A DNA stretch of 64,000 bases, from NCBI GenBank assembly GCA_947626565.1, contig CANQSQ010000003.1:1518-65517 (forward strand). The letters are read 5' to 3'. Within the stretch, counting starts at the first letter, position 1. Each line of letters opens with the position of its first letter. A program made the translations under genes and the position numbers. Positions 3,429 through 27,400 of the stretch are shown here, piece after piece. This DNA is from an uncultured Bacilli bacterium (GTDB lineage: Bacteria; Bacillota_I; Bacilli_A; RF39; UBA660). A model generated the notes under the pieces. The model ran no database searches, was not told where the DNA came from, and was given only the letters and a program-made list of their open reading frames with translations.

Positions 3429-3500
3429 ATTTTTTATTGAAGTTACTGGCTATAATGGTTAATTATGTTTGCAAATTATGTGATATTTAAGGAAAAATAG

Positions 3501-3520
3501 TACTGGCTATATAGCCAGTA
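3501..3520. repeat. perfect 20-bp palindrome TACTGGCTAT|ATAGCCAGTA (same family as the array at 19476-19657)
   Basis: Read directly: tactggctatatagccagta is its own reverse complement. A half-site ttactggctata lies at 3444-3455. Confidence 0.9.
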
Positions 3521-3653: not shown

Positions 3654-4047
3654 TTATTTATTATTATTGTTTAGAAAATTAGGATTTTTATAATTATCAA
3701 TATTATCATTTACAAAAATAATGCGTATATTATAAAGAGAAAAAATATATTTGAGACATTTTCCTAAAGTTATATAATTTCTTTCTAATCTTGATAGGTC
3801 TTTTATAATTATAATATTTATTCTTTCTTATTTTATATCATTATAATTTTAAGAAAAGCTGATCGATTAAAATCTGTTCTCGTATAACCATCATCAATGT
3901 AATAATCAATTATTTTAATATTTTTTCATGAGCTAGATAAGCTAGTAATAAATTTTTTTGATTAGAAATACTATTGCTTTCTTTTATAGTTTCATCATTT
4001 CTAAATATATGAGCATATATACCAACTTTAAATAATTTACTATTCAT
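3654..4047 (-). pseudogene. decayed serine recombinase (resolvase catalytic domain only, at least 2 frameshifts, truncated)
   Basis: The minus strand reads in three frames. These are MNSKLFKVGIYAHIFRNDETIKESNSISNQKNLLLAYL (4047-3910), IDYYIDDGYTRTDFNRSAFLKII (3910-3833) and NIIIIKDLSRLERNYITLGKCLKYIFSLYNIRIIFVNDNID (about 3821-3654). They match serine-recombinase signatures YARVS..SI.NQ, Y.DDG.SG and KDLSRLGRN. The catalytic Ser position reads Phe, and no recombinase or zinc-ribbon domain follows. Confidence 0.7.
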
Positions 4048-5407: not shown

Positions 5408-5456
5408 AAAATACTAAAATATAAAAGAATATTATTAAAATAAGAGGGGTAACTAT

Positions 5457-6641: not shown

Positions 6642-6681
6642 ATAGAAAGGAAGAAACTATAATAAATAGTTAGGAAATATT

Positions 6682-7782: not shown

Positions 7783-7870
7783 TTGTAGTTAGTAATTATA
7801 AGTTTAGTGAAATAATTTGAAACATAAATGATTATGCACCATGAATAAGGTGGGAAAGAGTGAGTGTAAT

Positions 7871-8968: not shown

Positions 8969-9071
8969 CTATATCAATTATTTATTTAGTTAAATAGTAA
9001 AATGCAATTTATATTAAATTAATGAAAAACAAGAGAAAATGTAATTTTTTCTTTAAAAAAATTATAAATAA

Positions 9072-9080
9072 TGATATAAT
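9072..9080 (+). promoter_or_regulatory. candidate internal extended -10 promoter (TGATATAAT)
   Basis: tgatataat lies in the 180-bp gap before the GT2 gene. Confidence 0.35.
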
Positions 9081-9147
9081 ACCAGCTATTATTATTTATG
9101 TATTCTGAAACTTATGTTTATTTGATTGTGAGAGGAATGGTATTTAA

Positions 9148-10086: not shown

Positions 10087-10166
10087 TGTGAGTATAGTTA
10101 TGATTGGAAAAACTATTAGTTCTACTTATCTTTTATTAAGAAAATTGAAGAAAAGGAGTATAAATT

Positions 10167-12528: not shown

Positions 12529-12565
12529 GTATTTAGAATTAAAATTTTTTGAAGGTGATGATTCA

Positions 12566-13131
12566 ATGATAAAAAATAAAAAAGATTATTTAGAATATTT
12601 GAAAAGAGATAAAATAGCTTTAGGAAGGACAGCTAAATTTCCTAGTATGTTTGATTATATTTGGAAATATGAAATTTTATTAAGAAAATGTGAATATCTA
12701 AAAAATTGTGGGGGGGGGTATATAATAAAATATTATTTAAATATTTTATTATAAAGAGAAATAAATTAGGAATAAAGCTAGGTTTTAGTATACCATTAAA
12801 TGTTTTTGACTCTGGTTTAAGTATTGCTCATATAGGACCAATAATTGTTAATGGAGGTGCCAAGATTGGAAAAAATTGTCGCATTCACGTTGGAGTTAAT
12901 ATAGGAACTAAAGCTGGTTTTGAGCATGATGCACCAATACTTGGGGATAATATATACATTGGACCGGGAGCAAAATTATTTGGAAAAATACATATAGCTG
13001 ATAACATAGCTATAGGGGCTAATGCTGTTGTTAATAAAAGTTTTGCTGAAACAGGAATTTCAATAGCTGGTGTTCCAGCTAAAAAAATTAGTAATAAAGG
13101 TACAAAAAATATAATTAAGTTAAATAAATAG
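12566..13131 (+). pseudogene. hexapeptide-repeat O-acetyltransferase (serine-acetyltransferase-like), split by a frameshift at a G9 tract
   Basis: ORF 12566-12754 encodes the family's N-terminal helical part (DYLEYLKRDKIALG...LLRKCEYLKN). ORF 12706-13131 encodes the left-handed beta-helix part (GLSIAHIGPIIVNGGAKIGKNCRIHVGVNIG...). The two frames meet inside GGGGGGGGG, and adding one G would fuse them. Confidence 0.8.
12710..12718. repeat. G9 homopolymer (slipped-strand phase-variation candidate)
   Basis: Read directly: tgtgggggggggta. It is the only long G/C homopolymer I noticed in this very AT-rich window. Confidence 0.95.
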
Positions 13132-13143
13132 GAGGATTTTTTT

Positions 13144-14310
13144 GTGAAAATAGCAGTTGCAGGAACAGGTTATGTAGGATTATCACTTGCTACATTGCTT
13201 AGCCAAAATAATGAAGTTATGGCACTTGATGTCATAGAAGAAAAAGTTAATATGATTAATAATAGGATATCACCTATTAAAGACGAGTATATCGAAAAAT
13301 TTTTTAAAGAAAAACAATTAAATTTAAAAGCAACTCTTGATTATGAAGAAGCTTTTAATAATGCTAAATTCATTATAATAAGTACCCCCACGAATTATGA
13401 TGATGAACTAAACTATTTTGATACTTCTTCCGTTGAAGATATAATTGAAAAAGTTATTAGTATGAATATTGATACAACTATTGTTATTAAATCAACTATA
13501 CCAGTAGGTTTTGTTGAATCTATGAAAAAGAAATATCATATTGATAATATTATGTTTTCACCTGAATTCTTACGTGAAGGAAAAGCTTTATATGATAACT
13601 TATATCCATCTAGAATAATAGTTGGATCTACTGATGATAAAGCTCATTTATTTGCTTCAATTCTAAAGGAAGCTTCTTTAAAAGAAGAGGTTCCTATTTT
13701 ATATATGAATTCAACAGAAGCTGAAGCAGTTAAGTTATTTGCTAATACTTATTTAGCTTTAAGAGTATCTTATTTTAATGAATTAGACACCTATGCTGAA
13801 ATTAAAAATCTAAATACAAAAGATATTATTGATGGAGTTTGTTTAGATCCAAGAATAGGAACTCATTATAATAATCCATCATTTGGTTATGGAGGGTATT
13901 GTTTACCAAAAGATACTAAGCAATTATTAGCTAATTATAAAGATGTACCTGAAAATTTAATAGAAGCTATAGTTAAGGCTAATGATACAAGAAAAGATCA
14001 CATTGTTAATATGGTTTTGACAAAAAAACCTAAAGTCGTAGGAATTTATAGATTGACAATGAAAACTGATTCTGATAATTTTAGAGCTAGTGCTATTCAG
14101 GGTATAATTGAACGTTTAAAGAATAAAAATATTGAGATTATTATATATGAACCAACTTTAAATATTAATATTTTTAATGATTGTTTAGTAGTTAATGATT
14201 TTTCACAATTTTCAGAGAAAGCTGATTTAATTTTGGCTAATAGGCTAGATAGTAAAATTAAGATTTTAAAAGATAAAATATATACGAGAGACATTTTTTC
14301 AAGAGATTAA
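13144..14310 (+). CDS. ugd: UDP-glucose 6-dehydrogenase
   Basis: GTG start with RBS aggagg. Rossmann MKIAVAGTGYVGLS, catalytic-Cys motif GYGGYCLPKDTKQL, FSPEFLREG. Confidence 0.9.
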   Translation: MKIAVAGTGYVGLSLATLLSQNNEVMALDVIEEKVNMINNRISPIKDEYIEKFFKEKQLNLKATLDYEEAFNNAKFIIISTPTNYDDELNYFDTSSVEDIIEKVISMNIDTTIVIKSTIPVGFVESMKKKYHIDNIMFSPEFLREGKALYDNLYPSRIIVGSTDDKAHLFASILKEASLKEEVPILYMNSTEAEAVKLFANTYLALRVSYFNELDTYAEIKNLNTKDIIDGVCLDPRIGTHYNNPSFGYGGYCLPKDTKQLLANYKDVPENLIEAIVKANDTRKDHIVNMVLTKKPKVVGIYRLTMKTDSDNFRASAIQGIIERLKNKNIEIIIYEPTLNINIFNDCLVVNDFSQFSEKADLILANRLDSKIKILKDKIYTRDIFSRD

Positions 14311-14391
14311 ATTTAAATTATAAAGTCAAAATACAAATATTACATAATATTTGATTGAAAATGTAATGAATTGAAAGTGGTGATTTTAAAA

Positions 14392-15435
14392 ATGAAAGAA
14401 ATTAAAAGTATTAATTTTATAAAATTCTTTTCTTTTTTGTCAATTTTTTTGTTACATACTAATAATATAATTGATTTAAAAATAAATTCTTTGTCAAGAT
14501 TTGGAGTAGAAATATTCATTGTTTTATCTGGCTTCCTAATGTATTACAATTATTATGATAAGTTTGACAATACTGGTGAAAAGATACCCTTTTTTTTAAA
14601 AAAACTTAAAAAATTTTATCCATTATTTATAATTTCTTTATTAATTAAATTGCCTGTTACTTTGTATAAATACTATTTGGAATTTAATGGATTAAATTTT
14701 CTATTTTTTACCAATTCAGTATTAAGACTAATTCCATCGCTATTTTTATTTCAAGCTTTTATACCTAGTGAAAAGTATTATTTTGCTTACAATGGTGTTG
14801 CTTGGTTTTTAGATGTTTTGTTCTTTTGTTATTTGTTTACACCATTTCTTGTAGGGCAACTAAAAAAAATAAAGAATAAAATTTTAGCTTCTGTAATTGT
14901 CTTTTTAATACAATGCTTTTACATCCTTATATTAAATAAATATCAAATTAATGAATACTGGTATTATATTTTTCCACTTTCTAGAATATTTGACTATATT
15001 CAAGGAATGTTACTATGCAGTATTTATCTTCATTTAAAAAAATGTAAACAAAATATGAAACCATATATATATATATATACAATAATAGAAGCAATAACTA
15101 TATTTTTAATTTTTGTAGCTTTCTTTAATGATTGGTTTCATTATGATATATTTGTCTTATTAATGTCTCTTATCACAATTTTAGTATTTGTAATATGCAA
15201 AGGTCACATATCTAATTTTTTATCTAAATCTAGAATATTAAATAAATTTGGTAAACTTAATTTGGAATTTTATTTGTTACATCAGCCTATTATAAAATAT
15301 TATGAATTTATTTATCAAAAACTTAATATAATTAATCCATATTTATCTGTTTTTATTATATTTGTCATTTTTGTTAATTTATATTTAATTTCGGTAATAA
15401 TTCATGAAAAACTTTTTACCAAAAAAATTAAATGA
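14392..15435 (+). CDS. membrane acyltransferase family 3 (O-acetyltransferase)
   Basis: Multi-pass membrane protein with FGVEIFIVLSGFLM and WFLDVLFFCY motifs typical of acyltransferase_3. The ORF track start at 14371 is in frame upstream. Stop TGA. Confidence 0.75.
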   Translation: MKEIKSINFIKFFSFLSIFLLHTNNIIDLKINSLSRFGVEIFIVLSGFLMYYNYYDKFDNTGEKIPFFLKKLKKFYPLFIISLLIKLPVTLYKYYLEFNGLNFLFFTNSVLRLIPSLFLFQAFIPSEKYYFAYNGVAWFLDVLFFCYLFTPFLVGQLKKIKNKILASVIVFLIQCFYILILNKYQINEYWYYIFPLSRIFDYIQGMLLCSIYLHLKKCKQNMKPYIYIYTIIEAITIFLIFVAFFNDWFHYDIFVLLMSLITILVFVICKGHISNFLSKSRILNKFGKLNLEFYLLHQPIIKYYEFIYQKLNIINPYLSVFIIFVIFVNLYLISVIIHEKLFTKKIK

Positions 15436-15479
15436 TAAAATGTTCTGTTAAATATTTAATAATTTTTAGAATTTTGCCA

Positions 15480-15488
15480 TGATATAAT
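15480..15488 (+). promoter_or_regulatory. candidate internal extended -10 promoter (TGATATAAT)
   Basis: tgatataat lies in the 110-bp gap upstream of the GT4 gene at 15546. Confidence 0.35.
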
Positions 15489-15545
15489 ATGCTTGATTAT
15501 GTTGATTATTGTTTCATTATATAAAATTAGAAAGGAATATTATTT

Positions 15546-16658
15546 ATGAAAAAGCAACCTCTTATAATTGCTCAAATAATGGGTAAATGGAATGGTGGTG
15601 GTGTTGAAGCAGTTGTTATGAATTATTATAGACATTTAGATAGAAATAACATACAATTTGATTTTATTTGTGATAATGATTCAACTAATATACCATATGA
15701 AGAAATAAAAAGGTTAGGTGGCAAAGTTTTTTTAGTACCACCTTATCAGAAAATATTCGAATATAATAAAGAATTATTTAAAATATTTAAAAAAGAAAAG
15801 TATAAAATAGTTCATTCACACATAAATACTTTGTCAATATTTCCATTGAGAATAGCAAAAAAAGCAAATATACCAGTGCGTATAGCTCATAGTCATTCGA
15901 CCTCTAATAAAAAAGAATGGAAAAGGAATTTAATAAAGCAATTATTAAGACCATTTTCAAAAATGTATGCAACTGATTATATGTGCTGCAGTGAGTTTGC
16001 TGGAAGATGGCTTTTTGGAGATAAAGAATTTGACAAGGGAAATGTATATCTTTTAAACAATGCAATAGATGTAGATAAATTTAAATATGATGAAAAGATA
16101 AGAAAAATGAAAAGAGAAGAATTAGGCATAAATAAGGATACTCTAGTGATAGGTCATATTGGAAGATTTGTTTCTCAAAAGAACCATACATTTTTAATTG
16201 ACATTTTTAAAGAAATACATAGACAAAATAAAAATACAACACTTTTATTGGTTGGACAAGGACCCCTTAAGAAGACAATAGAAGAAAAAGTAAAAGTATT
16301 GAACTTAGAAAATAGTGTTATATTTTTAGGACAAAGAGAAGATGTTAATGATTTGTACCAAACTATGGACGTATTTGTATTGCCAAGCCTTTATGAGGGG
16401 CTTCCTGTTGTTGGAGTTGAAGCTCAAGCGAGTGGTCTTTTATGCATGTTTTCTACTGACATGACAAGAGAAGTAAAAATATTAGATACATCTATTTTTA
16501 TACCTTTGGAAAAGTCAAGCAGTTATTGGGCAAAAAAAATTATGGATAATTATACTGCAAATAAAAGAAAAGATGAAAGAAAAGCTGTTACTATGGCTAA
16601 TTTTAGTATTAATGAAGAAGCACAAAAACTAGTAGAAAAATATAAATCTTTAATATAG
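15546..16658 (+). CDS. glycosyltransferase family 4
   Basis: GRFVSQKNH and PSLYEGLPVVGVEAQASGL motifs of GT-B/GT4 enzymes. Confidence 0.85.
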   Translation: MKKQPLIIAQIMGKWNGGGVEAVVMNYYRHLDRNNIQFDFICDNDSTNIPYEEIKRLGGKVFLVPPYQKIFEYNKELFKIFKKEKYKIVHSHINTLSIFPLRIAKKANIPVRIAHSHSTSNKKEWKRNLIKQLLRPFSKMYATDYMCCSEFAGRWLFGDKEFDKGNVYLLNNAIDVDKFKYDEKIRKMKREELGINKDTLVIGHIGRFVSQKNHTFLIDIFKEIHRQNKNTTLLLVGQGPLKKTIEEKVKVLNLENSVIFLGQREDVNDLYQTMDVFVLPSLYEGLPVVGVEAQASGLLCMFSTDMTREVKILDTSIFIPLEKSSSYWAKKIMDNYTANKRKDERKAVTMANFSINEEAQKLVEKYKSLI

Positions 16659-16670
16659 GAGTTATTCTTT

Positions 16671-19043
16671 ATGAAAAAAGTGGGAATTGTATCGTGTTAT
16701 TTTAAAGAAAATTATGGAAGTGTCCTTCAAGCATATGCAACTCAAAGATTTTTGAATAATAATAATGTACAAAATGAAACTATTGAAATAGAAAAAAATA
16801 TTGATTTTAAGAATGGCAAAAAAAAGTTTTATCTTTCTCAAATTATGAATTTTAACTTTTTAAAAACAAAGTTTGGAATGGTAAAATTTAAAATAGATAA
16901 AAAAATCAAGAAAAATTTAAAACAAAATATTTTGATAAGAAATAATGAATTTAAAAAATTTAAAAATAATTTTAGTTTATCCAAAAGTTGTAACACTTAT
17001 AATGAATTGACGGAGTTATCAAAAAATAATTATTCAGACGTTATAGTTGGTAGTGATCAACTATGGCTACCAGTAAATGTTGTTGCTGATTACTATACTT
17101 TGAATTGGGTACCAAATGATATAAATAAAATTTCTTATGCCACAAGTTTTGGAATTTCTGAAATACCCAATAAATATCAAAAATTATATAAAAAGTTTTT
17201 GAAAAGAATTAATTATTTGTCAGTAAGAGAGGAAACTGGTGTAAATTTAGTAAAAAAAATGGCAAATAAAAATGCTAAATTAGTGTGTGATCCTGTATTC
17301 CTTTTAACTAAAGAAAAATGGGATGAGATAGCACCTAAAGAAAGAGTTATAAAAGATAAATATATTTTATGTTACTTTTTAGGAAATAATATTAATCATA
17401 GAAAGTTTGCAGAAAAACTAAAAGAAGCAACTGGCTATAAAATAGTTTCAATAAATCATTGTGATGAATATGTAAAATATTCAGACAAATTTGCTGATAT
17501 TATACCATACGATGTTGGTCCAGATAAATGGTTGGATTTAATAAAAAATGCTGAATATGTATGCACTGATTCTTTTCATTGTACTGCCTTTTCAATAATT
17601 TACAATAAAGAATTTTTTGATTTTAGAAGATATAGTTCTAAAAATAGGAATTCCACTAATTCAAGAATTGATTCATTACTAAACTCATTAAAAATAGATA
17701 AAAATAGAATTTTAGCTGGGACTGAGGATGTAATAGATATTTTAAATCTTAAAATAGATTACGAAAAAGTAAACAAAAAATTAGATGAAATTTCTAAAAC
17801 TTCAGGAGAATGGTTATTAAATTCTATTAAGTGGAAAAAAGAAGAAAGTAAATATATAAAAATTACTAATAAAGAATTTTGTACTGGATGTACTGCTTGT
17901 AAAAATATTTGTCCCAAAGATGCAATAGAAATGATAAGGGATGAAGAAGGTTTTTTATATCCAAAGGTAAATGAGCAAAATTGTATAAAATGTGGTTTAT
18001 GCAAGAAAATCTGCCCAGTATTAAATAAGCTATTAAGAGAAGATTTCAAACAGGAAGGATATATTTTTCAGCATAGTAATAAAAAAATAAGAAAAGAAAG
18101 TACAAGTGGTGGAGCTTTCACTGCAATATCTGAATATATATTAAAAAATGGAGGAGTTGTTTATGGTGTTGGCTTTGATTCTAACTTTAATGTTAAACAT
18201 ATAAGAATTACACAAGAAAAAGATTTATATAAATTTAGAAATTCTAAATATGTCCAGAGTGATCCCAATTCTACATTTTTACAAGTATTAGATGATTTGA
18301 AAAAGAACTTGTTAGTTTGTTATAGTGGCACGGCTTGTCAGATTGAAGGATTAAAGGCATTTTTAAGGAAAGATTATGAAAATCTTATTACTGTTGATGT
18401 AGTTTGTAGGGCAGTTCCTTCACCATTATTATGGAAAAAATATTTTGATTATAGGAATAATCAAAAAAATATTAAAAAAATATATTTTAGAGAAAAATTT
18501 TATGGTTATAAATATTCCAATTTAAGTATTTATAATGAAAATGACTGTATTTATCATAACGGTATAGATACGGATCCATATCTACGAGCGTTTTTTTCTA
18601 ACATTGCATGTAGACCATCGTGTTATAATTGTCATTTTAAGGAACAATTGCATAAGTCTGATTTTACAATATGGGACTGCTTTGAAGTAGATAAATTTTC
18701 CAAAGATTTTGATGATGACTTAGGTACTACGAGAGTGCTTATTAATAGTCAAAGAGGCAGGAAAATTTTTGACAATATTAAAATAGAACATAAATACAAA
18801 GCAATTGATGTTAATATATTGGTAAATAATTTTTATCAAATGTTTAATTCTATAAAATATAATTCTGAAAGAGAGCAATTTTTTGAAGATTTAAACAATG
18901 CTGATTTTAACTCCGTTATTAACAAGTATTTTCCAAATAATATTAAGTGTATGATAGAAAAATATTCTAGAAAAATATTAATATTTATTGGAATATATAA
19001 ACCACTATTAAAATTGGGAAGAAAATTAAGAAGGCGTGACTAA
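16671..19043 (+). CDS. fusion protein: polysaccharide pyruvyl transferase + 2x[4Fe-4S] ferredoxin + coenzyme F420 hydrogenase/dehydrogenase beta (FrhB)-like domain
   Basis: The N-terminal ~390 aa have pyruvyl-transferase features (VGIVSCYFKENYGSVLQAYATQ, VGSDQLW). The centre is CTGCTACKNICPKDAI...CIKCGLCKKICPV (two CX2CX2CX3CP clusters). The C-terminal ~330 aa resemble the FrhB-like family (SGGAFTAISEY, GTACQIEGL, VDVVCRAVPS). Confidence 0.7.
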   Translation: MKKVGIVSCYFKENYGSVLQAYATQRFLNNNNVQNETIEIEKNIDFKNGKKKFYLSQIMNFNFLKTKFGMVKFKIDKKIKKNLKQNILIRNNEFKKFKNNFSLSKSCNTYNELTELSKNNYSDVIVGSDQLWLPVNVVADYYTLNWVPNDINKISYATSFGISEIPNKYQKLYKKFLKRINYLSVREETGVNLVKKMANKNAKLVCDPVFLLTKEKWDEIAPKERVIKDKYILCYFLGNNINHRKFAEKLKEATGYKIVSINHCDEYVKYSDKFADIIPYDVGPDKWLDLIKNAEYVCTDSFHCTAFSIIYNKEFFDFRRYSSKNRNSTNSRIDSLLNSLKIDKNRILAGTEDVIDILNLKIDYEKVNKKLDEISKTSGEWLLNSIKWKKEESKYIKITNKEFCTGCTACKNICPKDAIEMIRDEEGFLYPKVNEQNCIKCGLCKKICPVLNKLLREDFKQEGYIFQHSNKKIRKESTSGGAFTAISEYILKNGGVVYGVGFDSNFNVKHIRITQEKDLYKFRNSKYVQSDPNSTFLQVLDDLKKNLLVCYSGTACQIEGLKAFLRKDYENLITVDVVCRAVPSPLLWKKYFDYRNNQKNIKKIYFREKFYGYKYSNLSIYNENDCIYHNGIDTDPYLRAFFSNIACRPSCYNCHFKEQLHKSDFTIWDCFEVDKFSKDFDDDLGTTRVLINSQRGRKIFDNIKIEHKYKAIDVNILVNNFYQMFNSIKYNSEREQFFEDLNNADFNSVINKYFPNNIKCMIEKYSRKILIFIGIYKPLLKLGRKLRRRD

Positions 19044-19475
19044 ACTATTTATTAAAAGCAGTACTATAAAAACATGTGATAAAAGTTATATGTAAATTAC
19101 AAAATTTAAAATTTGATGAGTTTGAATAATAATAGGATATAAGATATTAAATTATTAAAAAACTTTTTTTAGCATAGCATAAATTAATTTAAAAGAGAGA
19201 AAATAAATATTCTCTGTCAAATAGTGTTGATAGACAATAAAAATGATAAATGAATTAAAATATAGAGGATGATTAAAGTCATCCTTGAATAATTTTTTTG
19301 ATATAAAATGGTTTAACTTTGATAACATTCATAGGTGGCTTTTAATTCTTGATTAGTATTTATCATAAAAGTAACCATTTTTTTGAGATATAATTTTCTT
19401 AAAATATTTATAGTAATGATTAATATTAATTATATAGGTGCTTATTTAGGCACTTTTTATTTTGTAAATTTTTAG

Positions 19476-19657
19476 TACTACTGGCTATAGAGCCAGTGGT
19501 TGATAAAAAATACTACTGGTTCTACAGCCAGTATGAAATAGATATTATGTACTGGTCTTAGAGCCAGTATTGATAAATAAATTTGGTACTGGCTCTGTAA
19601 CCAGTAGTGAATAGATAAATGTGGTACTGGTTGTAGAGCCAGTACTTTTGTTTTTTG
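19476..19657. repeat. five tandem ~35-39-bp units, each with a TACTGGYT-loop-AGCCAGTA hairpin; last unit followed by a T-run
   Basis: Units start at 19476, 19511, 19550, 19587 and 19625. Stems are ACTGGCT/AGCCAGT, TACTGGTT/AGCCAGTA, TACTGGT/GCCAGTA, TACTGG.T/A.CCAGTA and GTACTGGTT/AGCCAGTAC. Linkers share tgaWtaRataaat. Non-coding. Confidence 0.9.
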
Positions 19658-19751
19658 TAATTATTGTTATTTGTAATAAAACTTAATCTTAATTTTAAAT
19701 ATTTTGTACTAATTTAGTTTCTTACTTTATTTAAAAATAAATTCTCTTTAC

Positions 19752-19777
19752 ATATATTAACGTTTATGTTAATATAT
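19752..19777. promoter_or_regulatory. candidate operator: 10-bp inverted repeat ATATATTAAC-n6-GTTAATATAT upstream of the toxin-antitoxin pair
   Basis: A perfect 10/10 inverted repeat 55 bp upstream of the toxin ATG, overlapping AT-rich -10-like hexamers. The downstream HTH protein is a plausible binder. Confidence 0.4.
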
Positions 19778-19832
19778 ATTTATAAATTAGAAAAATTTTT
19801 GAAAGGAGAAAAGTAGGGAGGTTTTACAACTA

Positions 19833-20168
19833 ATGAATATAATATATACTAAGAGTTATGATAGAATGGCTAAAGGTCTGAAGAAACATATTAATGAAAA
19901 GAATACTTTAGAAGTTATAAAAGAATTAATTGAAAATTCAAGTGATTTTGCTGAATTAAAAAACAATCCTATAGCTAAAAGATATAATTATGAATGACTA
20001 AAACACCAATTAAATGAATTTTGGTCTTTTTATCTTGATAAAGATGGTGGAGTAATTAGACTTATAGTAAAACCTACTGAAAATACTGATGAGTTATATT
20101 TAGTATTTGTGAGCTTTGATCACTATGAAGATTTTTCTAAGGAAAAGGTGATTTATTATGATGAATAA
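19833..20168 (+). pseudogene. RelE/HigB-like toxin interrupted by an in-frame TGA (19995-19997)
   Basis: Translation: MNIIYTKSYDRMAKGLKKHINEKNTLEVIKELIENSSDFAELKNNPIAKRYNYE*LKHQLNEFWSFYLDKDGGVIRLIVKPTENTDELYLVFVSFDHYEDFSKEKVIYYDE. RBS gggagg. It overlaps the start of the downstream HTH gene by 11 nt, which is a toxin-first HigBA-type order. Confidence 0.55.
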
Positions 20169-21186
20169 ATTTGGTAGTCAATTGGGTGAATTTTTAAATG
20201 ATAATAATATTAGTATTAAAGAATTTGCTAATAGAATTAATACTTCTCAAAAAAATCTGATTGATATTTTAAAAGGAAAAATAGAGTTATCTCAAAATAT
20301 GATTTATAATATTTCTTTTGTTACTAGTATTCCAGTTAATTATATTGAGAATGTAGAATCTAATTATAAATTAGAAGTAACACTAAAAAAATTTCTTGAA
20401 GAAAGAAATATGACGGTAAGAGAATTTATTAATAAATTTAGTTATAAAGAATTTTCTAAAAAATATAATTTTAAATTTAGTGATGAAAGAAATGATTATA
20501 GTATAGCTAAAGGCATATTAAAGTATTTAAGAATAACTGATCCTAGTCTGTTGTACAAAAAAGATAATACTATTTTTTATAAAAGTAAAAATGACAAGAT
20601 TGAATTGTTAGTTTTATGGTTGGAAAGATGCTACAAGATTGTATCTGAACAAAAAATTAGTGAATATAAGAAAGAAAATATTGATATTGTGGTTGACTAC
20701 ATAAGAGATTGTGCAGCTAATGATGAGTTTAATGAAAAAAAGTTAATTACTAAATTTAATGATAATGGTATATATTTGGCAATTGAAGATGATTTAAAGG
20801 GTTCAAAAATTAGAGGAGCTTTTAAAGTGTTAAATGATAAACCAGCTATTTATATTACTAGAAAACATAAAAGATATGCCGATGTTTACTTTGCTTTGTT
20901 ACATGAGTTAGCTCATTGTAAGAGTGATTTTAATAGGGCAAAAAATGGATCACTTGTGTCATTTCAAGATGAAACGATGGATGATGATTATGAAATTAGA
21001 GCAGATAAGACAGCATTTAATTGGATGGTAGATGATCAATTATATAATAAAATAAAATATAATTATAATAATATTGACAAATTTGAAGTTGTAAAATCAT
21101 TCTTTGTATATAGATTAGCAAATGATAAAATTATCAGTTATGCTTCTAAATTATATCAGGAAAATAATAAAATAATAGTAAAGTAA
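20158..21186 (+). CDS. XRE-family HTH fused to ImmA/IrrE-type zinc metallopeptidase domain (HigA-like partner)
   Basis: N-terminal HTH (ISIKEFANRINTSQKNLIDILKGK). C-terminal HEXXH motif in YFALLHELAHCKSD, typical of the COG2856/ImmA family. Confidence 0.8.
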   Translation: MMNKFGSQLGEFLNDNNISIKEFANRINTSQKNLIDILKGKIELSQNMIYNISFVTSIPVNYIENVESNYKLEVTLKKFLEERNMTVREFINKFSYKEFSKKYNFKFSDERNDYSIAKGILKYLRITDPSLLYKKDNTIFYKSKNDKIELLVLWLERCYKIVSEQKISEYKKENIDIVVDYIRDCAANDEFNEKKLITKFNDNGIYLAIEDDLKGSKIRGAFKVLNDKPAIYITRKHKRYADVYFALLHELAHCKSDFNRAKNGSLVSFQDETMDDDYEIRADKTAFNWMVDDQLYNKIKYNYNNIDKFEVVKSFFVYRLANDKIISYASKLYQENNKIIVK

Positions 21187-21214
21187 AACTTTCTTTTCAA
21201 TTTTATATAAAGTA

Positions 21215-21223
21215 TGTTATAAT
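21215..21223 (+). promoter_or_regulatory. candidate extended -10 promoter (TGTTATAAT) for the LCP gene
   Basis: tgttataat lies 37 bp upstream of ATG 21260. Confidence 0.4.
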
Positions 21224-21259
21224 CATTTTATGATAAAATAGATGATGAGAGGTTTTTAT

Positions 21260-22783
21260 ATGGGAAAAGAACAGAATGTAAATGAAGAAAAAGAAGAAAT
21301 AAAAGAAACTAAAGAAGAAAAGCAGGAACAAGAAGATAAACCAGTAAGACACAGAAAAAAATATGTTAAGAAAAAAAGATTTAAAAAAATTAATATTTTA
21401 GGACTAATTAGTTTAATTTGTCTTAGTGTTTTCTTAGTTTTATTTGTAAGAATGGGTGTTTTACCTTTACCTTATTTGATTGTTTCTATTAATTTATTTA
21501 TAATATTTCAGGTAATTGGTATTGTCTTAATTAATGTAAAAAAGAAAGCACTTAAAACAATTGGAATTATTTTGTTATGTTTATCAATACTAATAAATGG
21601 TGCTGGAAGTTATTATTTATATCATACCAATAAATTTTTAGATGATTCTTTTGGTAATGATGTTTTGATAAGTACTGATACTTATTATATAGTTACTAGT
21701 AAAACTAGTGGTTTAACTAAAGATACTATTCAAAATAATGTTTCTTATTATGATGGAACTAATAAAAATGAAAAAGCTCTTAAAAAGATTAATGAAATGT
21801 ATGATGTTCAAATGAAACCATATGTTGATTTGGTATTAATGTTTAATGATATATTAGCAAATACAGCTAATTATATGTATATAGAGAAAAATCAATTTAA
21901 TTATGTTATTGAATTAAATGATAGTTTAAATAAGGATGATTTTGTTATTTTAGATAAAATTGATATCAAGACAAAGACAACTATTAAAAAAGCTGAGGTA
22001 AAAGATACATTTAATATATATGTTGGTGGTGTTGACTTTACAGAGAATTGTGTAGATTTTAATATGATAATTAGTATTAATACAAAGACAAGTGCTGTTG
22101 TATTAACAAGTATTCCAAGAGATTATTATATTGAAGCTGTAGGTTATAATGGAGCATATGATACACTTAGTTTTATGGGACCATATGGTATAGAGACATC
22201 AATGAAGTCTATTGGAAAGTTGTTTGACATTGATATTGATTACTTTATAAAATTGAATACAACTAGTTTAGTTGAAGTAGTCGATAAAGTAGGGGGAATT
22301 ACTTATTGTAGTGATGAAGCTTTTACTACGACACATGCCCTAGTTTTAGATACATATGATGACAGAGGACAAAAGTTACATGTTGATAAAGGATGTCAAG
22401 AAATAAATGGAATTCAAGCTTTGACGATTGCGAGAGAAAGAAATGCTTTTGTTGGAAGAGATAGAGTAAGACAAGAGAATTGCCGTAAAATATTATTAGC
22501 AATCTTAAAGAAATTGAATAATGTTAATACTATAAAAAATTATACAGGTATTTTAGATTCATTTAGTAATTTGTATGAAACAAATATTCCTAAAGAAGTT
22601 ATTAGTAATATTGCTAAGACGACTTTAAATAATAAAGGAAATTGGAATATAACAGAACAATCAGTTAATGGTGGAGATGGTTTTGATTATGTGCATATGT
22701 CTGGTTTAAAATCATATGTAATGATACCAGATATGAATACAGTAAATGCTGCTAGTAGTAAAATAAAGGGAATTGTTAAGTAA
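21260..22783 (+). CDS. LytR-CpsA-Psr (LCP) family glycopolymer ligase
   Basis: Lys/Glu-rich cytoplasmic head, TM segments, then the LCP core with VLTSIPRDYY, LSFMGPYG and ALTIARERNAF...RVRQENCRKIL. ATG 21260 has RBS gagagg. The ORF track start at 21242 is in frame upstream. Confidence 0.85.
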   Translation: MGKEQNVNEEKEEIKETKEEKQEQEDKPVRHRKKYVKKKRFKKINILGLISLICLSVFLVLFVRMGVLPLPYLIVSINLFIIFQVIGIVLINVKKKALKTIGIILLCLSILINGAGSYYLYHTNKFLDDSFGNDVLISTDTYYIVTSKTSGLTKDTIQNNVSYYDGTNKNEKALKKINEMYDVQMKPYVDLVLMFNDILANTANYMYIEKNQFNYVIELNDSLNKDDFVILDKIDIKTKTTIKKAEVKDTFNIYVGGVDFTENCVDFNMIISINTKTSAVVLTSIPRDYYIEAVGYNGAYDTLSFMGPYGIETSMKSIGKLFDIDIDYFIKLNTTSLVEVVDKVGGITYCSDEAFTTTHALVLDTYDDRGQKLHVDKGCQEINGIQALTIARERNAFVGRDRVRQENCRKILLAILKKLNNVNTIKNYTGILDSFSNLYETNIPKEVISNIAKTTLNNKGNWNITEQSVNGGDGFDYVHMSGLKSYVMIPDMNTVNAASSKIKGIVK

Positions 22784-22848
22784 TTGACAATTCTTTTTTT
22801 TTAAGATTATTTGTGGTAAAATATTATTATAATGATGGAGATGATGTG

Positions 22849-24321
22849 ATGAAAGATGATAAAAGAAATTTTTATTTAGCGATAATTGTGTTTATTAGTA
22901 TTTTTACAATATGTTCTACGACGTCTTTTTTATATCCATTTTGTGATGAATCACATTGCTTTTTTAATGTGGGTAAAGCAATTTTAAATGGTCGGGTTTT
23001 ATATAAGGATATTTTAGAACAAAAGGGTTTATTAATATATATTATTCAGATACCAGCTTATTTAATTTCACATACTAATTTTTTTGGTGTTTGGTTAGTT
23101 CAATTATGTTTTATGATACCTAGTGCTATAGCAATTTATAAGATAGCTAACTTTTATTTAAAATCATCATTTAAAAGTTTAATTGCTACAAGTTTGTGTG
23201 CTTTTATAATATTTACCTCTAATGCTTTAGCTAGTGGACAAGTAGTAGAAGTTTATGCTTTACCGTTTTTCTTATTTCCTCTATATTGGGCTATTAAATA
23301 TATAAAGGAAGAAAATTTAATTCCAAATAAAAAAATATTTATATGTGGTTTATTCGCGGGAATTGTTTTTTGGATGAAATATTCTTTATTAGGCTTTTAT
23401 TTTGGGTATATGGCTTATATTTGTATTAGACTTTTGAGTGAAAAAAAGATAAAAGAGGCATTTAAAAAAGGATTTATATTTGTGGGTGGTTTTATTCTAG
23501 TTAGTGTTCCGTGCATTTTATATTTTGTTTTTAATGATGCTACTAAGGAATTACTTGATTATTATTTTTTGAATAATATAGTAGGATATGGAACACAGCT
23601 TACTTTTATTTCAATGTTAAAAGTATATTGGCATAGTTTTATTCAACAATTCAGATGGAATTTATTATTAATGATATCCTTATTAATAGGGTTGATTTAT
23701 GTATTGAAGAAGATGAAATTTAAAGATAGCTTATTAATTGCAGTTACATTTATAATTCAATATGCCATTATTTTTAGCCATGGAGGAATGTATGCATATT
23801 ATTTGTTTGCCTTTTCATGCTTTGCTATTTTTGGTTGTGTGGCTATACTTGATATAAAATTTGTAAAAACCAAGGCTTTGCCTTGGTATATAGTATATAC
23901 TATATGTTTATTCTTTATTGTAATGGCTAATATATTTAAACCATGTCCTAATCAATTTTTAAAAAAACCACAAAAACTAGCTCAATATCAATTTGCAGAT
24001 TATATGAATAGTCATTATAAAAAACCAACAATGTTGGATTTAGACTTAGATGGAGGTTTTTATACAGTGGCTGATATAGTGCCAAGTACTTGGGCATATT
24101 GTAAATTGAATTGGGGTAATTCTAAGATGATAGATGATCAAAATAATACAATTAAGAATAAATTAGTCGATTTTATTGTTTTTAGGCAAATAGAGGGTGA
24201 AGAGAAAAGAAAGGTACCTTATTTAGAAGAAAATTATAAGTTAGTTAAAAAGGTTGGGCAATATAGGGATGATATTTATATAACTTATTATTTATATGAA
24301 GTTGTTAGAGAGAAAGTTTAA
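22849..24321 (+). CDS. GT-C fold membrane glycosyltransferase (PMT_2/ArnT-like)
   Basis: About 11 hydrophobic segments. The first loop, FCDESHCFFNVGKAILNGRVLYKDILEQKGLLIY, resembles the D/E...G..(L/P)Y.D...KGP motif of family-39/83-like enzymes. Soluble C-terminal domain. Start 22849 has RBS ggaga. Confidence 0.5.
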   Translation: MKDDKRNFYLAIIVFISIFTICSTTSFLYPFCDESHCFFNVGKAILNGRVLYKDILEQKGLLIYIIQIPAYLISHTNFFGVWLVQLCFMIPSAIAIYKIANFYLKSSFKSLIATSLCAFIIFTSNALASGQVVEVYALPFFLFPLYWAIKYIKEENLIPNKKIFICGLFAGIVFWMKYSLLGFYFGYMAYICIRLLSEKKIKEAFKKGFIFVGGFILVSVPCILYFVFNDATKELLDYYFLNNIVGYGTQLTFISMLKVYWHSFIQQFRWNLLLMISLLIGLIYVLKKMKFKDSLLIAVTFIIQYAIIFSHGGMYAYYLFAFSCFAIFGCVAILDIKFVKTKALPWYIVYTICLFFIVMANIFKPCPNQFLKKPQKLAQYQFADYMNSHYKKPTMLDLDLDGGFYTVADIVPSTWAYCKLNWGNSKMIDDQNNTIKNKLVDFIVFRQIEGEEKRKVPYLEENYKLVKKVGQYRDDIYITYYLYEVVREKV

Positions 24322-24408
24322 TTTCTCTTTTTTTATAACTTATATTTTTCTTTATTTATGGTAGTGATTGTGTTATTATAAATAATTAAATAAATGGAGG
24401 TAGAGTTG

Positions 24409-27400
24409 ATGAAATTACAGGTAAAATATATAAAAGAGCGAATAAAAGCTGTTCAAGAGAAGATAAGAAGATATCTTAAAATTAGATTAGCAAAGAATGT
24501 AGACTATGCACCTCTTTCTCCAGTAGAAATTGTAGAAGAACATATTGATGAATACATGAAAGTTTTAAATATGGTTATAAATAATGATGAGTTAAATAAT
24601 GTAGCAATAACAGGGGGATATGGTACAGGTAAAAGTTCCATAATAAAGACGTTTATAAAACGACTTTGTTTAAAGAAAAAACAATATAGTATTATAACTA
24701 TTGGATCATATTTTAAAGACGAAAGTATTAGAAAAGATGTTTTACAAAGAAATAATTTAAATAATGAAAGTGATGAGGAAAAAGAAAATAAGAATATAGA
24801 AGATAATAAGCAAGAAAAAAGAACATTAGAAGAAAGTAGAGAAAGTGATTACTACTTAAGTGAAGATGAGATAAGATTAGTTAATAAAATAGAAAATGCT
24901 ATTATAAGACAATTACTTTTTAAAAATAACTCAGAAGATATTTTAGAAAGTAATTTCAAAAGATTAAGTAGTAGAAGTCATAGAATTATACAATTATTTA
25001 GTTATTTATATTTACTTTGGTTTGGCTTATTATTAATAATTTTAAAATTTATTTTTACGTATCAAGAAGAAATTACTTCATTTATGATAAATAATTTTTA
25101 TAAGATGGTTGTATTTTTTAATAGTTCTATTTTTGATAAGATTTCTCCGGTAATTATTTTGAGCATAATTATATTATTAATATTTGCTGGTGGTAGTTTA
25201 ATAGTAAGTATTGCTGAAGGGATATTTAAAGCAACTAAGCATTTTAATTTTAGTGTAAAACAGAATAAATTATCATTGGCAGTTAGTTATGATATGGCTT
25301 TTGCTAAGGAACTTAGAGAAATAATAGCTTTTTTTGCCTATAATAAAAAGTGTAGAATAGTCTTCTTTGAAGACATTGATCGTTTTTCAGTTGATGTTAG
25401 TTTGAAAATGGTAGAGGAGTTAAAAGAACTTAATACTATTATTAATAATTCGGATTCGGTAGAACAAAATGTAACTTTTATATATTCTTTTAAAGAGGAT
25501 ATTTTTAAGAATTATAAAGATAAAAGTAAGTTTTATGACTATATTATATCAGTGATGCCTATATCTACTTTTTATAATTCTGCAGAGGTTTTAGAAATGG
25601 CTTTAAAAAAAGCTAATGTAACTTATAAAATTTCTGATAAATTACTAGATATTGTAGCTAATAATATTTATGATGTAAGAACACTTAATTTGATAGTTAA
25701 TGATTTTAAGTTATTTGTGAAAACATTAAAGACCAATAATTATGATAAAGTGTTTGCTATGGTTACATTTAAAAATTACTATATAAAAGAATATGATGGT
25801 ATTTTAGAAAAAGATAATTTTATTGATAAGAGATTTAATGCATATTTTAATAAGAAAAGTGAATTATATAAAATTACTAATCGTAAAATTACTGAGTTAA
25901 AGGGAAAAATAAAAGAGTTTACGAGTGAGGTTTGTAGTAATGTTAGGGAATTGAAACAATTATTATGGTTTAATAATTTTAATAATAGTGTAAATAATAC
26001 TCACATTTTTTGTAATGGAAAATATTATTACTATCAAGATTTTATGAAAGATAACTTTGATATGGAACAGTTAAGAAATAATGAAATTAGGATTTATGGT
26101 GCTTTTAATAATTATTTTGATTATGAATTTGCGGGTGGCAAAGTTAAGTTTTTCGAACGGTTAGATAAAATTACTAATAAAGAGAAGTTACGAGAATTAG
26201 AAGAAGAATTAGCTGCTAGTAAGTATGATTTAGATAGAATTGATGATTTAACAAAGAATGAAGTTATACTAGAATATGGTAAAGAAGAGGTCGTTGTTAT
26301 TGATCTTTTGGATCAATTAATAATTAATAATTTTATTGAAAGAGATTATTTAGATTATATAACGTTACCACCTAGTAATGGTTTAACTGTTAGTGATAAT
26401 AAATTTATTTTTGATGTTAAACATAAAAGTTTTTCAGAAATGACAGGAATAACTAATTGTGCTAAAATCTTAGAAAAATTGGCATTAGAAGAGTTTAATG
26501 GAGTGTATACTTTCAATGTTAACTTAATAAATTTTTTAATTAATAATAAAGACCAGTATACTACTATTTATGGAATGATTTTGGATAATTACAAAAGATT
26601 AGATGATGTTAAGATTAAACAAATTGAAATGCTTTATAATTTTTCATTAGTGGTATATTTAAAATTTATGAATGATATTAATAAAACAGGTACTGATATT
26701 TGGAATGTTTTTATGGATAAGGTTAGTGAAGAAAATAGAAATATTTACAGTAAGATGATGTTTGAAACAATATTATTATTAGATAAAACTACTAATATGG
26801 GAAATAAAAAAACATTTATTGAATATGCTAATGAGTATTTTAATAAGACAGCTAATATAAGGGAAAACTTTGCTATGCTTTTTAGATTAACGGATAACGT
26901 TAAAAGAAATTTAGTAAAATTATTGGGTTATAATTTACGAATTATTGATTTAAATGAATTTTTAGAAAAAGAAAAAGACTTTTTTATTAATAATGGAATG
27001 TATTATTATAATATAAATAATATGAAAGAAATATTGAAGTTTATACCTACTAGTCTAAGTAATAGTGCTTTGAAAGGAATAAGAGAAGGAGAAGTATTTA
27101 TTGAGCATATTCTAAATAATTTTAATTGTTTTGCGAAAGAATATTATTTAGAAAATAATTTTAAAATTGATGATAAAGATATTATAAAGAAACTATTACT
27201 GAGAAATGATATAGCACCAGAAATTAAGAAAGAAATCTTAAAACGGGAGCAGTTTACGGTATATAAGGATGAAGTAGACGAGGGTTTTGATGAGTTGATG
27301 TTTGAATATAATCATTGGACTAGTTCTTGGATTCTTGTTAATTATGTATATGAAAAAATGGGACTAAAAAAAGTAGGTTCTTATGTTTATAAGAATAGAG

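What the first reader, a model, noticed from the sequence alone, without database searches (positions are those of the whole stretch)
19476..19657. Array of five tandem hairpin units (TACTGGYT-loop-AGCCAGTA) in the gap after the capsule cassette
Read directly, the five units are: 19476 tacTACTGGCTatagAGCCAGTggttgataaaaaa; 19511 tacTACTGGTTctacAGCCAGTAtgaaatagatattatg; 19550 TACTGGTcttagaGCCAGTAttgataaataaatttgg; 19587 TACTGGCTctgtaACCAGTAgtgaatagataaatgtgg; 19625 TACTGGTTgtagAGCCAGTActtttgttttttg. The period is 35-39 bp. The stem arms are conserved while the loops vary. Stem differences are transitions that keep G-U pairing on the + strand in three units. The linkers also resemble each other (tgaWtaRataaat), and only the last unit is followed by a terminator-like T-run. 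No ORF covers the array and I recognise no known operator consensus in it (cre, LexA, CodY, CIRCE, Fur and NrdR were all checked by eye). Possible roles are a multi-hairpin RNA or insulator-terminator, an iterated binding array (centromere- or operator-like) for a DNA-binding protein such as the adjacent XRE-ImmA protein, or a recombination target.
Basis: seen in the sequence. Interest (0 to 1): 0.72.

Follow-up and report, generated by a model that had tools for sequence, protein, structure and literature searches.

The report
Tandem terminator-like hairpin repeat array
The five tandem hairpins are real, but they look like a locally amplified copy of a small, lineage-restricted, terminator-like palindromic repeat sitting at the edge of a capsule gene cassette, not a dedicated regulatory array for the neighbouring DNA-binding protein.

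Summary
The array at 19476-19657 is confirmed. It has five TACTGG-N8-CCAGTA hairpins with start-to-start spacing of 35/36/37/38 bp, where chance predicts 0 exact matches. A sixth, perfect copy lies at 3501-3520, at the other edge of the variable capsule region, next to a decayed serine-recombinase gene.

The only other members found anywhere are in one rabbit-gut Bacilli MAG (L038). There a 3-unit array directly follows a VanZ gene, and an identical 20-mer sits just in front of an IS200 copy. Fourteen other copies of that IS200 type each sit behind a different terminator hairpin, so the hairpin is the insertion target, not an end of the IS.

About 159 kb of related loci have no copy. Orthologous loci keep the HTH gene and its own conserved operator-like inverted repeat (19752-19777). 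In the array's slot they have one ordinary terminator or none.

The stems show no compensatory changes. There is no Rfam family, no Cas or Tas gene, and no Y1 transposase in the window.

Best reading: a minisatellite of a terminator-like palindromic repeat (akin to SPRITE, boxB or REP) that acts, if at all, as a bidirectional terminator or insulator. Interest is modest.

The parts
19479..19498 (.). Unit 1: TACTGGCT-ATAG-AGCCAGTG hairpin
   Evidence: RNA fold -15.4 kcal/mol on the + strand, -11.1 on the - strand; covariance model R1 scores 34.9 bits on -, 29.8 on +
19514..19533 (.). Unit 2: TACTGGTT-CTAC-AGCCAGTA hairpin. On the - strand it is followed by GTATTTTTTA, so it is terminator-like on the - strand
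19550..19569 (.). Unit 3: TACTGGTC-TTAG-AGCCAGTA hairpin (7-bp stem)
19587..19606 (.). Unit 4: TACTGGCT-CTGT-AACCAGTA hairpin (pairs better on the - strand)
19623..19657 (+). Unit 5: GGTACTGGTT-GTAG-AGCCAGTACT plus the T-run TTTGTTTTTTG. This is a canonical intrinsic terminator on the + strand
   Evidence: 10-pair stem, 4 G-C pairs, loop of 4, T-run; -14.3 kcal/mol; 39.5 bits on +
3501..3520 (-). Solo perfect palindrome TACTGGCTATATAGCCAGTA with a T-rich tail (CTATTTTTCC) on the - strand. It lies about 160 nt downstream of the recombinase remnant, in the gap between cpsB and the priming sugar transferase
   Evidence: It is the best-scoring R1 hit (44.5 bits on -, 31.4 on +). The hairpin and its flanks align with L038 6916-6957 at 86% in the reverse orientation
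3444..3454 (.). Possible decayed extra unit: left arm plus loop TACTGGCTATA (11 of 11 bases), right arm lost
   Evidence: the covariance model does not detect it
3679..4047 (-). Remnant of the N-terminal part of a large serine recombinase gene (pseudogene with many stop codons)
   Evidence: 68% nucleotide identity over 306 nt to L038 890-1190; tblastx 6e-17; the L038 genes have Resolvase, Recombinase and Zn_ribbon_recom domains
19265..19296 (+). First terminator-like hairpin after the last capsule gene (16671-19043), unrelated in sequence to the array
19436..19465 (+). Second terminator-like hairpin (AGGTGCTTATTTAGGCACTT plus a T-run), directly in front of the array
   Evidence: folds as a separate helix
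19747..19777 (+). Promoter-like site (TTTACA-17-TAATAT) overlapped by the inverted repeat ATATATTAAC-N6-GTTAATATAT. It is invariant in six orthologous loci and is the likely operator of the downstream HTH protein. It is not part of the array; it is listed because it competes with the operator-array reading
   Evidence: alignment A2

Best explanation
The array is a minisatellite: a tandem amplification of a unit of about 37 bp, made of a 20-bp palindrome plus a 15-18-bp A/T-rich linker. The unit belongs to a small, lineage-restricted family of terminator-like palindromic repeats.

The ancestral unit looks like an intrinsic terminator: TACTGGCT-N4-AGCCAGTA followed by a T-rich tail. In the window it was first repeated with a 37-bp period. 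A two-unit (73-bp) block was then duplicated, probably by slippage or unequal recombination between the identical stems (inferred).

The array sits exactly at the junction between the strain-variable capsule cassette and the conserved downstream genes (small toxin-like gene, HTH protein, LytR). Relatives have one plain terminator or none in that slot. A sister copy sits at the other edge of the variable region, beside a decayed serine recombinase. In the only other genome known to have the family, the copies also lie among mobile-element genes. The family therefore seems to travel with, or accumulate in, mobile and variable DNA.

As far as it does anything, it most likely acts at the RNA level as a bidirectional transcription stop or insulator. 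Unit 5 plus its T-run would stop read-through from the capsule operon. Unit 2 plus its T-run would stop antisense transcription. The inner hairpins would be redundant 3'-end structures.

What is shown: the anatomy, the family membership, the absence from orthologous loci and the terminator-like form. What is inferred: actual termination, and how the array was amplified.
For: - The array is real and far beyond chance.
- The 38-bp and 73-bp periods and the two alternating linker types point to stepwise tandem duplication.
- Unit 5 (+) and unit 2 (-) meet the intrinsic-terminator pattern. The scan finds 5 such sites in 1.4 kb against 0.1 expected.
- Family members elsewhere: window 3501-3520, and L038 4524-4615 (3 units, 36-bp period) and L038 6931-6950. 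The linkers are homologous too (79-86% identity) and the tails are T-rich, with 6-7 T in the 10 nt after the stem.
- The L038 array begins 25 nt after the stop codon of a VanZ gene and is the only terminator-like structure there.
- The hairpin at L038 6931 is used as an insertion target by an IS200 type. At all 9 P0128 insertion sites with a readable upstream flank (L108-L116), this IS sits directly behind a different terminator hairpin that follows a co-oriented gene. The P0125 copies (L118-L120) and the two clostridial plasmid copies (L104, L105) each sit behind yet another hairpin. Another mobile element therefore treats this palindrome like a terminator.
- Orthologous loci have one ordinary terminator (L123-L134) or none (L106, L122) in the same slot. 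Homology to the window starts only at about 19745.
- There is no copy in about 159 kb of related loci, and no further copy in the other 64 kb of the window.
- A two-unit pattern scan of 185,579 species genomes found only L038.
- No stem covariation, which fits young copies rather than a conserved RNA.
Against: - No transcript data: termination is inferred from form only.
- Two other terminator-like hairpins already lie between the capsule operon and the array, so the array is not needed as a terminator.
- Units 1, 3 and 4 lack T-runs on either strand.
- The stem sequence is conserved, not merely the structure. That could reflect recognition by a protein rather than youth.
- Copy number in the complete genomes is unknown. 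Only 64 kb and 8 kb of the two carrier genomes could be read.
- Two of the four loci lie downstream of serine recombinase genes, and this explanation treats that as hitch-hiking.
Confidence: 0.55

Rival explanations
1. A REP/BIME-like element: palindromic units recognised and spread in trans by a Y1 (HUH) transposase of the IS200 or RAYT type, with the array as a BIME-like cluster.
For: The units are short palindromes clustered in an intergenic region. An identical 20-mer lies 137 bp upstream of an IS200-type tnpA in L038. The family occurs at unrelated loci in two genomes. REPs resemble IS200/IS605 end hairpins (PMC3333891, abstract seen).
Against: Comparison of 16 copies of this IS200 type shows the element starts at about TGTGTRAAGAAAAC, after the hairpin, and the hairpin in front is different at every site. 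The transposase-type hairpins (left interior and right end) have other sequences. So the palindrome is the target, not an end. The units are direct repeats with homologous linkers, not alternating orientations as in BIMEs. tblastn with the L038 IS200 TnpA finds no match in the window. Only 2 loci in 64 kb and none in about 159 kb of relatives.
Confidence: 0.12
2. An array of binding or crossover sites on double-stranded DNA for a dimeric protein. Candidates are the large serine recombinases seen next to two of the four loci, or an unknown regulator or partition protein. The array would then mark the end of an integrative element or act as an operator or centromere.
For: The arms are conserved in sequence as perfect 8-bp dyads while the centres vary. 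In L038 the array follows three tandem large serine recombinase genes plus VanZ. In the window the solo copy follows a recombinase remnant in the same relative orientation. The two window loci bracket the variable capsule region.
Against: For the adjacent HTH protein specifically: its orthologues keep a different, invariant inverted repeat over their promoter and lack the array. The spacing drifts (35, 36, 37, 38 bp), so sites are not phased. The central 4 bases differ between units, which would be incompatible for a crossover core. No partition genes are nearby. T-rich tails and position right after a stop codon fit terminators better. The two window loci share no homology beyond the hairpin itself.
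Confidence: 0.12
3. A structured non-coding RNA array: a guide-RNA array of the CRISPR or TIGR kind, or a multi-hairpin RNA that binds a protein.
For: The period of about 36-37 nt equals the 36-nt tigRNA unit. It has two alternating 8-nt repeats and ends in a terminator, as TIGR arrays do (PMC12045711). The predicted fold is very stable.
Against: TIGR units need two spacers of about 9 nt between the repeats, box C/D motifs and a Nop-domain Tas gene nearby. Here the gaps are 4 nt and 15-18 nt, the long gaps resemble each other instead of varying, and no Nop or Cas domain is found in the ORFs from 14371 to 27999. No Rfam family comes near its threshold. There are no compensatory changes and no convincing promoter of its own. 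It is absent from relatives.
Confidence: 0.04

Closest known systems
[quoted passage not shown] 2011, PMC3049150)
   Same: A small interspersed repeat family in a low-GC Gram-positive. Each copy is a stem followed by a T-rich tract. It is enriched next to 3' ends of genes, low in copy number (30 per genome) and confined to one or two closely related species. It is thought to be selfish DNA that can serve as a terminator.
   Different: SPRITE is about 105 bp with an 18-bp duplex and is not reported as head-to-tail arrays. Here the stem is 8-10 bp, the unit about 37 bp, and the copies are tandem. The sequences are unrelated. Copy number here is unknown.
BOX elements (boxA-boxB(n)-boxC) of pneumococci and S. 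suis
   Same: A variable number of tandem hairpin-forming sub-units of about 45 bp (boxB) in intergenic DNA. They are also proposed to act as terminators.
   Different: There are no boxA or boxC end modules and no terminal inverted repeats. The sequences are unrelated.
REP/BIME of enterobacteria and pseudomonads with their RAYT transposases (PMC3333891)
   Same: Short extragenic palindromes clustered after genes.
   Different: REPs are present in hundreds of copies and alternate in orientation within BIMEs. They are tied to a RAYT gene flanked by inverted REPs. None of these features was found here.
Intergenic minisatellites (VNTRs such as mycobacterial MIRUs; comparison from my own knowledge)
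   Same: Tandem repeats of a few tens of base pairs between genes, generated by slippage or unequal recombination, with strain-specific copy number.
   Different: The unit here is built around a perfect terminator-like palindrome. Unit-number variation between strains could not be shown: the one independent metagenome contig (L002) is identical, with 5 units.
TIGR arrays (Faure et al. 2025, PMC12045711)
   Same: A period of about 36 nt, two alternating short repeats and a terminal rho-independent terminator.
   Different: No dual 9-nt variable spacers, no box C/D motifs and no Tas (Nop-domain) gene.

Membership tests
Intrinsic (rho-independent) terminator | G+C-containing stem of at least 5 bp, loop of 3-8 nt, followed at once by a T-run | tested here: met
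   Met by unit 5 on the + strand and unit 2 on the - strand. Also met by the solo copy on the - strand and all four L038 units, with 6-7 T in the 10 nt after the stem. Not met by units 1, 3 and 4.
Intrinsic (rho-independent) terminator | Transcripts actually end there | not testable with these tools
   No RNA data are available for this organism.
Terminator-like interspersed repeat (SPRITE-type) | The same stem plus T-tract sequence recurs at unrelated loci, mostly just downstream of genes, in a narrow group of species | tested here: met
   Four loci in two genomes (window 3501, window 19476; L038 4524, L038 6931), with homologous flanks. Only one of 185,579 species genomes matches the two-unit pattern. 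Relatives lack it. Copy number per genome is unknown.
REP/BIME | High copy number (tens to hundreds) dispersed in intergenic regions | tested here: inconclusive
   2 loci in 64 kb (window), 2 in 8 kb (L038) and 0 in about 159 kb of relatives. Complete genomes could not be read.
REP/BIME | Neighbouring units alternate in orientation, with distinct head-head and tail-tail linkers | tested here: not met
   The linkers of successive units align in the same orientation. TRF reads a direct 38-bp repeat.
REP/BIME | A RAYT (Y1 transposase) gene flanked by inverted units | tested here: not met
   tblastn with the L038 IS200 TnpA finds no match in the window; a divergent RAYT was not searched for separately. 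The one Y1 gene next to a unit (L038) is an ordinary IS200 with its own, different end hairpins.
IS200/IS605 end hairpin (or a PATE derived from it) | The hairpin is a constant part of the element and resembles the hairpin at the other end | tested here: not met
   The hairpin in front of the IS differs at every site examined, while the sequence from TGTGTRAAGAAAAC onward is conserved. The interior left hairpin and the right-end hairpin resemble each other, not the TACTGG palindrome.
CRISPR array | Repeats of 23 nt or more separated by unique spacers of similar length, usually with cas genes nearby | tested here: not met
   The repeat is 20 nt and the gaps are 15-18 nt and similar to each other. 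No Cas domains in the ORFs from 14371 to 27999. The best CRISPR-DR Rfam hit scores 22 bits against a threshold of 45 and lies outside the array.
TIGR-Tas | Edge repeat, 9-nt spacer A, loop repeat, 9-nt spacer B; box C/D motifs; an adjacent Nop-domain Tas gene | tested here: not met
   The gaps are 4 nt and 15-18 nt. No Nop domain among the neighbouring proteins.
Operator array of the adjacent HTH protein | The sites co-occur with the regulator gene in orthologous loci | tested here: not met
   Orthologous loci in about 15 contigs (L106, L122-L135) keep the gene, and the six aligned keep a different invariant inverted repeat over the promoter; none has the hairpins.
Iteron or centromere array | Constant, helically phased spacing and a partition or replication gene next to it | tested here: not met
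   Spacing is 35, 36, 37, 38 bp. The neighbours are capsule genes, an HTH protein and LytR. In L038 they are VanZ and an AAA_14 ATPase.
Conserved structured RNA | Base pairs maintained by compensatory changes; a match to a curated family | tested here: not met
   0 of 8 pairs has a change on both sides. No Rfam match near its threshold.

The most novel reading that the evidence does not exclude
The palindromes are the recognition or junction sites of an island borne by a large serine recombinase. On this reading, the whole variable capsule cassette (about 3501-19657) is, or was, such an island. It would be bounded by same-orientation copies of the repeat, with the decayed recombinase just inside one end. 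The 5-unit array would be a multiplied junction. That would make these hairpin repeats a vehicle for capsule-type switching in uncultured gut Bacilli.
Probability: 0.07. Interest if true: 0.6.

Novelty: new member of a known kind. Interest (0 to 1): 0.3.

Why it matters
If my reading is right, this is one more small family of terminator-like intergenic repeats, here in an uncultured, 26% G+C gut Bacilli lineage. It is useful mainly in three ways:
- as a marker of the junctions of a variable capsule locus;
- as a possible VNTR;
- as a caution that striking hairpin arrays need not be dedicated regulatory devices.

It matters more if the link to serine recombinases at the borders of the capsule cassette is causal. 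It would then bear on how capsule cassettes are exchanged.

One by-product may interest people who study IS200/IS605 targeting. One IS200 lineage inserts right after rho-independent terminator hairpins at every site examined.

Tried and rejected
1. Left-end hairpin of an IS200 element. This was suggested by the identical 20-mer in front of tnpA in L038. I rejected it after comparing 16 copies of this IS type: the hairpin in front differs at every site.
2. Operator array of the adjacent HTH protein. Rejected using the orthologous loci.
3. TIGR or CRISPR-like guide array. The 36-nt period prompted me to read PMC12045711. The spacer geometry and the missing Tas or Cas genes rule it out.
4. Rfam, at gathering and at E-value thresholds: only generic hairpin noise.
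5. Alternating-orientation (BIME-like) reading of the 73-bp super-period. Rejected because the two linker types align with each other in the direct orientation.
6. Searches for more members:
   - JGI metagenome contigs gave 61 hits. None belongs to this family: nearly all are repeats in other sequence contexts (many G+C-rich, some clearly coding) and one is an unrelated AT-rich hairpin pair (L065).
   - IMG/VR gave single chance hits and one repeat unrelated to this family.
   - PLSDB plasmids and GenBank phages gave no match.
   - Protein-anchored scans of viral contigs with L038 VanZ and recombinase found nothing.
7. Longer homology between the two window loci that might mark island ends: nothing beyond the hairpin itself.
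8. Exact-protein look-ups to recover the source genome. They returned only two short identical metagenome contigs (L001, L002) and one for cpsB (L003). The 76-kb NCBI contig is not indexed.

Full report
**1.

Window 19476-19657 contains five hairpin units whose 20-bp cores start at 19479, 19514, 19550, 19587 and 19625.
- The pattern TACTGGYT-N3-7-RSCCAGTA gives 5 matches where dinucleotide-preserving shuffles give none.
- TACTGG-N8-CCAGTA with up to 2 mismatches gives 7 matches against 0.79 expected.
- Tandem Repeats Finder reports a 38-bp period (3.5 copies, score 128) and a stronger 73-bp period (2.3 copies, score 173).
- The region folds far better than shuffled sequence on both strands, with z = -12.5 on + and -9.5 on -.
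- No ORF of 40 aa or more covers it.

The perfect palindrome TACTGGCTATATAGCCAGTA lies at 3501-3520. A possible decayed half-unit lies at 3444-3454.

**2. Setting**

The window is 26% G+C and uses the standard genetic code, as shown by long ORFs.
- Genes 1223-19043 form a capsule locus. It runs from Wzz, a CpsD-like ATPase and CpsB through a priming sugar transferase, glycosyltransferases, EpsG and an acyltransferase to a pyruvyl-transferase fusion.
- The solo palindrome lies in the 1.1-kb gap between cpsB and the sugar transferase. It is about 160 nt downstream, on the minus strand, of a decayed N-terminal fragment of a large serine recombinase at 3679-4047.
- The array lies about 430 bp after the last capsule gene and behind two unrelated terminator-like hairpins.
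- To its right come a small toxin-like gene broken by an in-frame TGA, a 342-aa HTH protein, a LytR-CpsA-Psr protein and a Tmn-like NTPase.
- The HTH protein has no ImmA domain. It shows weak HTH hits and matches the PADLOC model PD-Lambda-2_B at 4.6e-20.

The two repeat loci thus bracket the variable part of the capsule locus.

**3. Anatomy of the array**

The units are direct repeats, each a 20-bp palindrome plus a 15-18-bp linker.
- The linkers come in two alternating types (ttgataaa... and gtgaatagataaat...). The two types also align with each other in the same orientation. This explains the 73-bp super-period and points to duplication of a two-unit block.
- On the + strand only unit 5 is followed by a T-run, and it scores as an intrinsic terminator. 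On the - strand unit 2 does.
- The single-base stem differences give G-U on the + strand four times and on the - strand twice. This is not a meaningful bias.
- An alignment of all ten known units shows 0 of 8 pairs with a change on both sides. So there is no evidence that pairing, as opposed to sequence, is under selection.

**4. Relatives of the repeat**

A two-unit pattern was scanned over one genome from each of 185,579 species. It gave 8 stretches, and only one is related: L038, an uncultured Bacilli MAG from rabbit gut at 25% G+C.

L038 has a 3-unit array with a 36-bp period at 4524-4615, starting 25 nt after the stop codon of a VanZ gene. That gene follows three tandem large serine recombinase genes. 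L038 also has the identical 20-mer TACTGGCTATATAGCCAGTA at 6931-6950.

The L038 array aligns with the window array in reverse orientation, linkers included, at 79% identity. The flanks of the two solo copies align at 86%. In that common orientation every L038 unit and the window solo copy have a T-rich tail. The ancestral unit therefore looks like an intrinsic terminator.

No further members turned up:
- JGI metagenome contigs gave 61 hits. None belongs to this family: nearly all are repeats in other sequence contexts (many G+C-rich, some clearly coding), and one is an unrelated AT-rich hairpin pair (L065).
- IMG/VR gave nothing related.
- Plasmids and phages gave no match.
- A metagenome contig (L002) is 100% identical to the window across the array, with 5 units.

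**5. The IS200 lead and why it fails**

In L038 the 20-mer lies 137 bp upstream of an IS200-type tnpA (Y1_Tnp). This suggested it was the element's left-end hairpin, and hence that the family was REP- or PATE-like.

I collected 13 further copies of this IS type from metagenome contigs and two from clostridial plasmids and lined up their ends.
- The conserved element begins at about TGTGTRAAGAAAAC.
- Immediately before it, every site examined has a different stem-loop followed by T's. At all 9 P0128 sites with a readable upstream flank (L108-L116), that stem-loop follows the end of a co-oriented gene.
- The hairpins that resemble each other, as transposase-binding ends should, are the interior left one and the right-end one. 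Neither resembles the TACTGG palindrome.

So the palindrome in L038 is host DNA that this IS200 chose as a target, exactly as it chooses ordinary terminators. This removes the main evidence for a Y1-transposase link and adds an independent hint that the unit is terminator-like. tblastn with the L038 IS200 TnpA finds no match in the window.

For comparison, in Salmonella IS200 a terminator hairpin at nt 12-34 is counted as part of the element (PMC4513863).

**6. The orthologous locus in relatives**

Homologues of the LytR and HTH proteins led to about 15 contigs from related organisms, covering about 159 kb with some redundancy.
- All show the same end-of-capsule-locus arrangement: small gene, 342-aa HTH gene, LytR.
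- None contains the palindrome, by regex or by a covariance model built from the ten units (R1). In 265 kb the model finds only its own training units.
- In the slot where the window has the array, the more distant relatives have one ordinary terminator hairpin. The closest relatives (82-89% protein identity; L106, L122) have none, and another gene abuts the promoter.
- Homology to the window begins at about 19745. From there all six aligned loci share an invariant block, TTTACATATATTAAC-N-TATGTTAATATAT. It is a 10-bp inverted repeat (19752-19761 and 19768-19777) lying over a -35/-10-like pair.

That inverted repeat is a far better operator candidate for the HTH protein than the array.

**7. 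Other families considered**
- Rfam gives nothing near threshold.
- TIGR arrays share the period of about 36 nt and the terminal terminator. However, they need two spacers of about 9 nt, box C/D motifs and a Nop-domain Tas gene (PMC12045711). None of these is present.
- The CRISPR criteria fail in the same way.
- Iteron or centromere readings fail on the drifting spacing and on the neighbouring genes.
- Among all loci fetched, the only hairpin-forming tandem arrays are those of the window and L038.

**8. Conclusion**

The simplest account that fits everything has three parts.
- The unit is a small, lineage-restricted, terminator-like palindromic repeat.
- It was amplified in place into a 5-unit minisatellite.
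- It lies at a junction of variable, mobile-element-scarred DNA.

The closest described kinds are the pneumococcal SPRITE and the tandem boxB modules of BOX (PMC3049150; PMC3184786).

I think it most likely behaves as a bidirectional terminator or insulator, but that is inferred from form only. The recurring position just downstream of serine recombinase genes is unexplained. It keeps alive a minority reading in which the palindromes are recombinase sites and the capsule cassette is an island.

Overall the finding is real and tidy, but it is a new member of a known kind, and interest is modest.

Noticed in passing
L038 6930-7650; L104, L105, L108-L120: One IS200 lineage (TnpA 79-99% identical; related at 70% DNA identity to the C. 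perfringens IS200S-type element) sits immediately after a different rho-independent-terminator-like hairpin plus T-run at every insertion site examined. At the 9 P0128 sites with a readable upstream flank, the hairpin follows a co-oriented gene. The terminator hairpin in front of the element is therefore target DNA, not part of the IS. In Salmonella IS200 a hairpin at nt 12-34 is described as internal (PMC4513863).
   Followed up: partly
window 19833-20168: The small gene upstream of the HTH gene is interrupted by an in-frame TGA at 19995-19997. The same is seen in metagenome contigs L001 and L002. It carries a deletion in L106 and is split in L123, but is an intact 110-112-aa ORF overlapping the HTH gene start in L124, L126-L128, L130 and L132. 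It looks like a decaying toxin-like partner gene.
   Followed up: partly
window 19747-19777: A 10-bp inverted repeat, ATATATTAAC-N6-GTTAATATAT, overlaps a -35/-10-like pair. It is invariant in six orthologous loci whose flanks differ and is the likely autoregulatory operator of the 342-aa HTH protein.
   Followed up: yes
window 20158-21186 and 24394-27999: The 342-aa HTH protein matches the PADLOC model PD-Lambda-2_B (4.6e-20), with a faint precomputed Lit-like Peptidase_U49 hit. The 1201-aa YobI-like NTPase matches Tmn (1.8e-29). A small defence-gene cluster therefore sits right after the capsule locus.
   Followed up: partly
window 1223-5220 versus L123 and L124: In relatives the wzz-cpsD-cpsB genes lie downstream of LytR. 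In the window they lie upstream of the variable capsule genes. At the new junction there is a 1.1-kb gap holding the recombinase remnant and the solo palindrome. This indicates a rearrangement of the locus linked to a mobile element.
   Followed up: no
L038 6691-6849: A second, non-hairpin tandem repeat (33-bp unit, CACGTTTTYCRAAGGAAT..., 4.3 copies, with a 66-bp super-period). It lies between the start of an AAA_14/DUF4143 ATPase gene and the palindrome targeted by IS200. It looks like an iteron or operator array.
   Followed up: no
window 19479-19644: The start-to-start spacing of the five hairpins rises by exactly one base each time (35, 36, 37, 38 bp). I have no explanation, and it may be coincidence.
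   Followed up: no
window 43950-44123 and 63318-63394: An ordinary T-box leader (94.4 bits) and a tRNA-Glu(CTC) gene. These fit a Bacillota-type organism.
   Followed up: no
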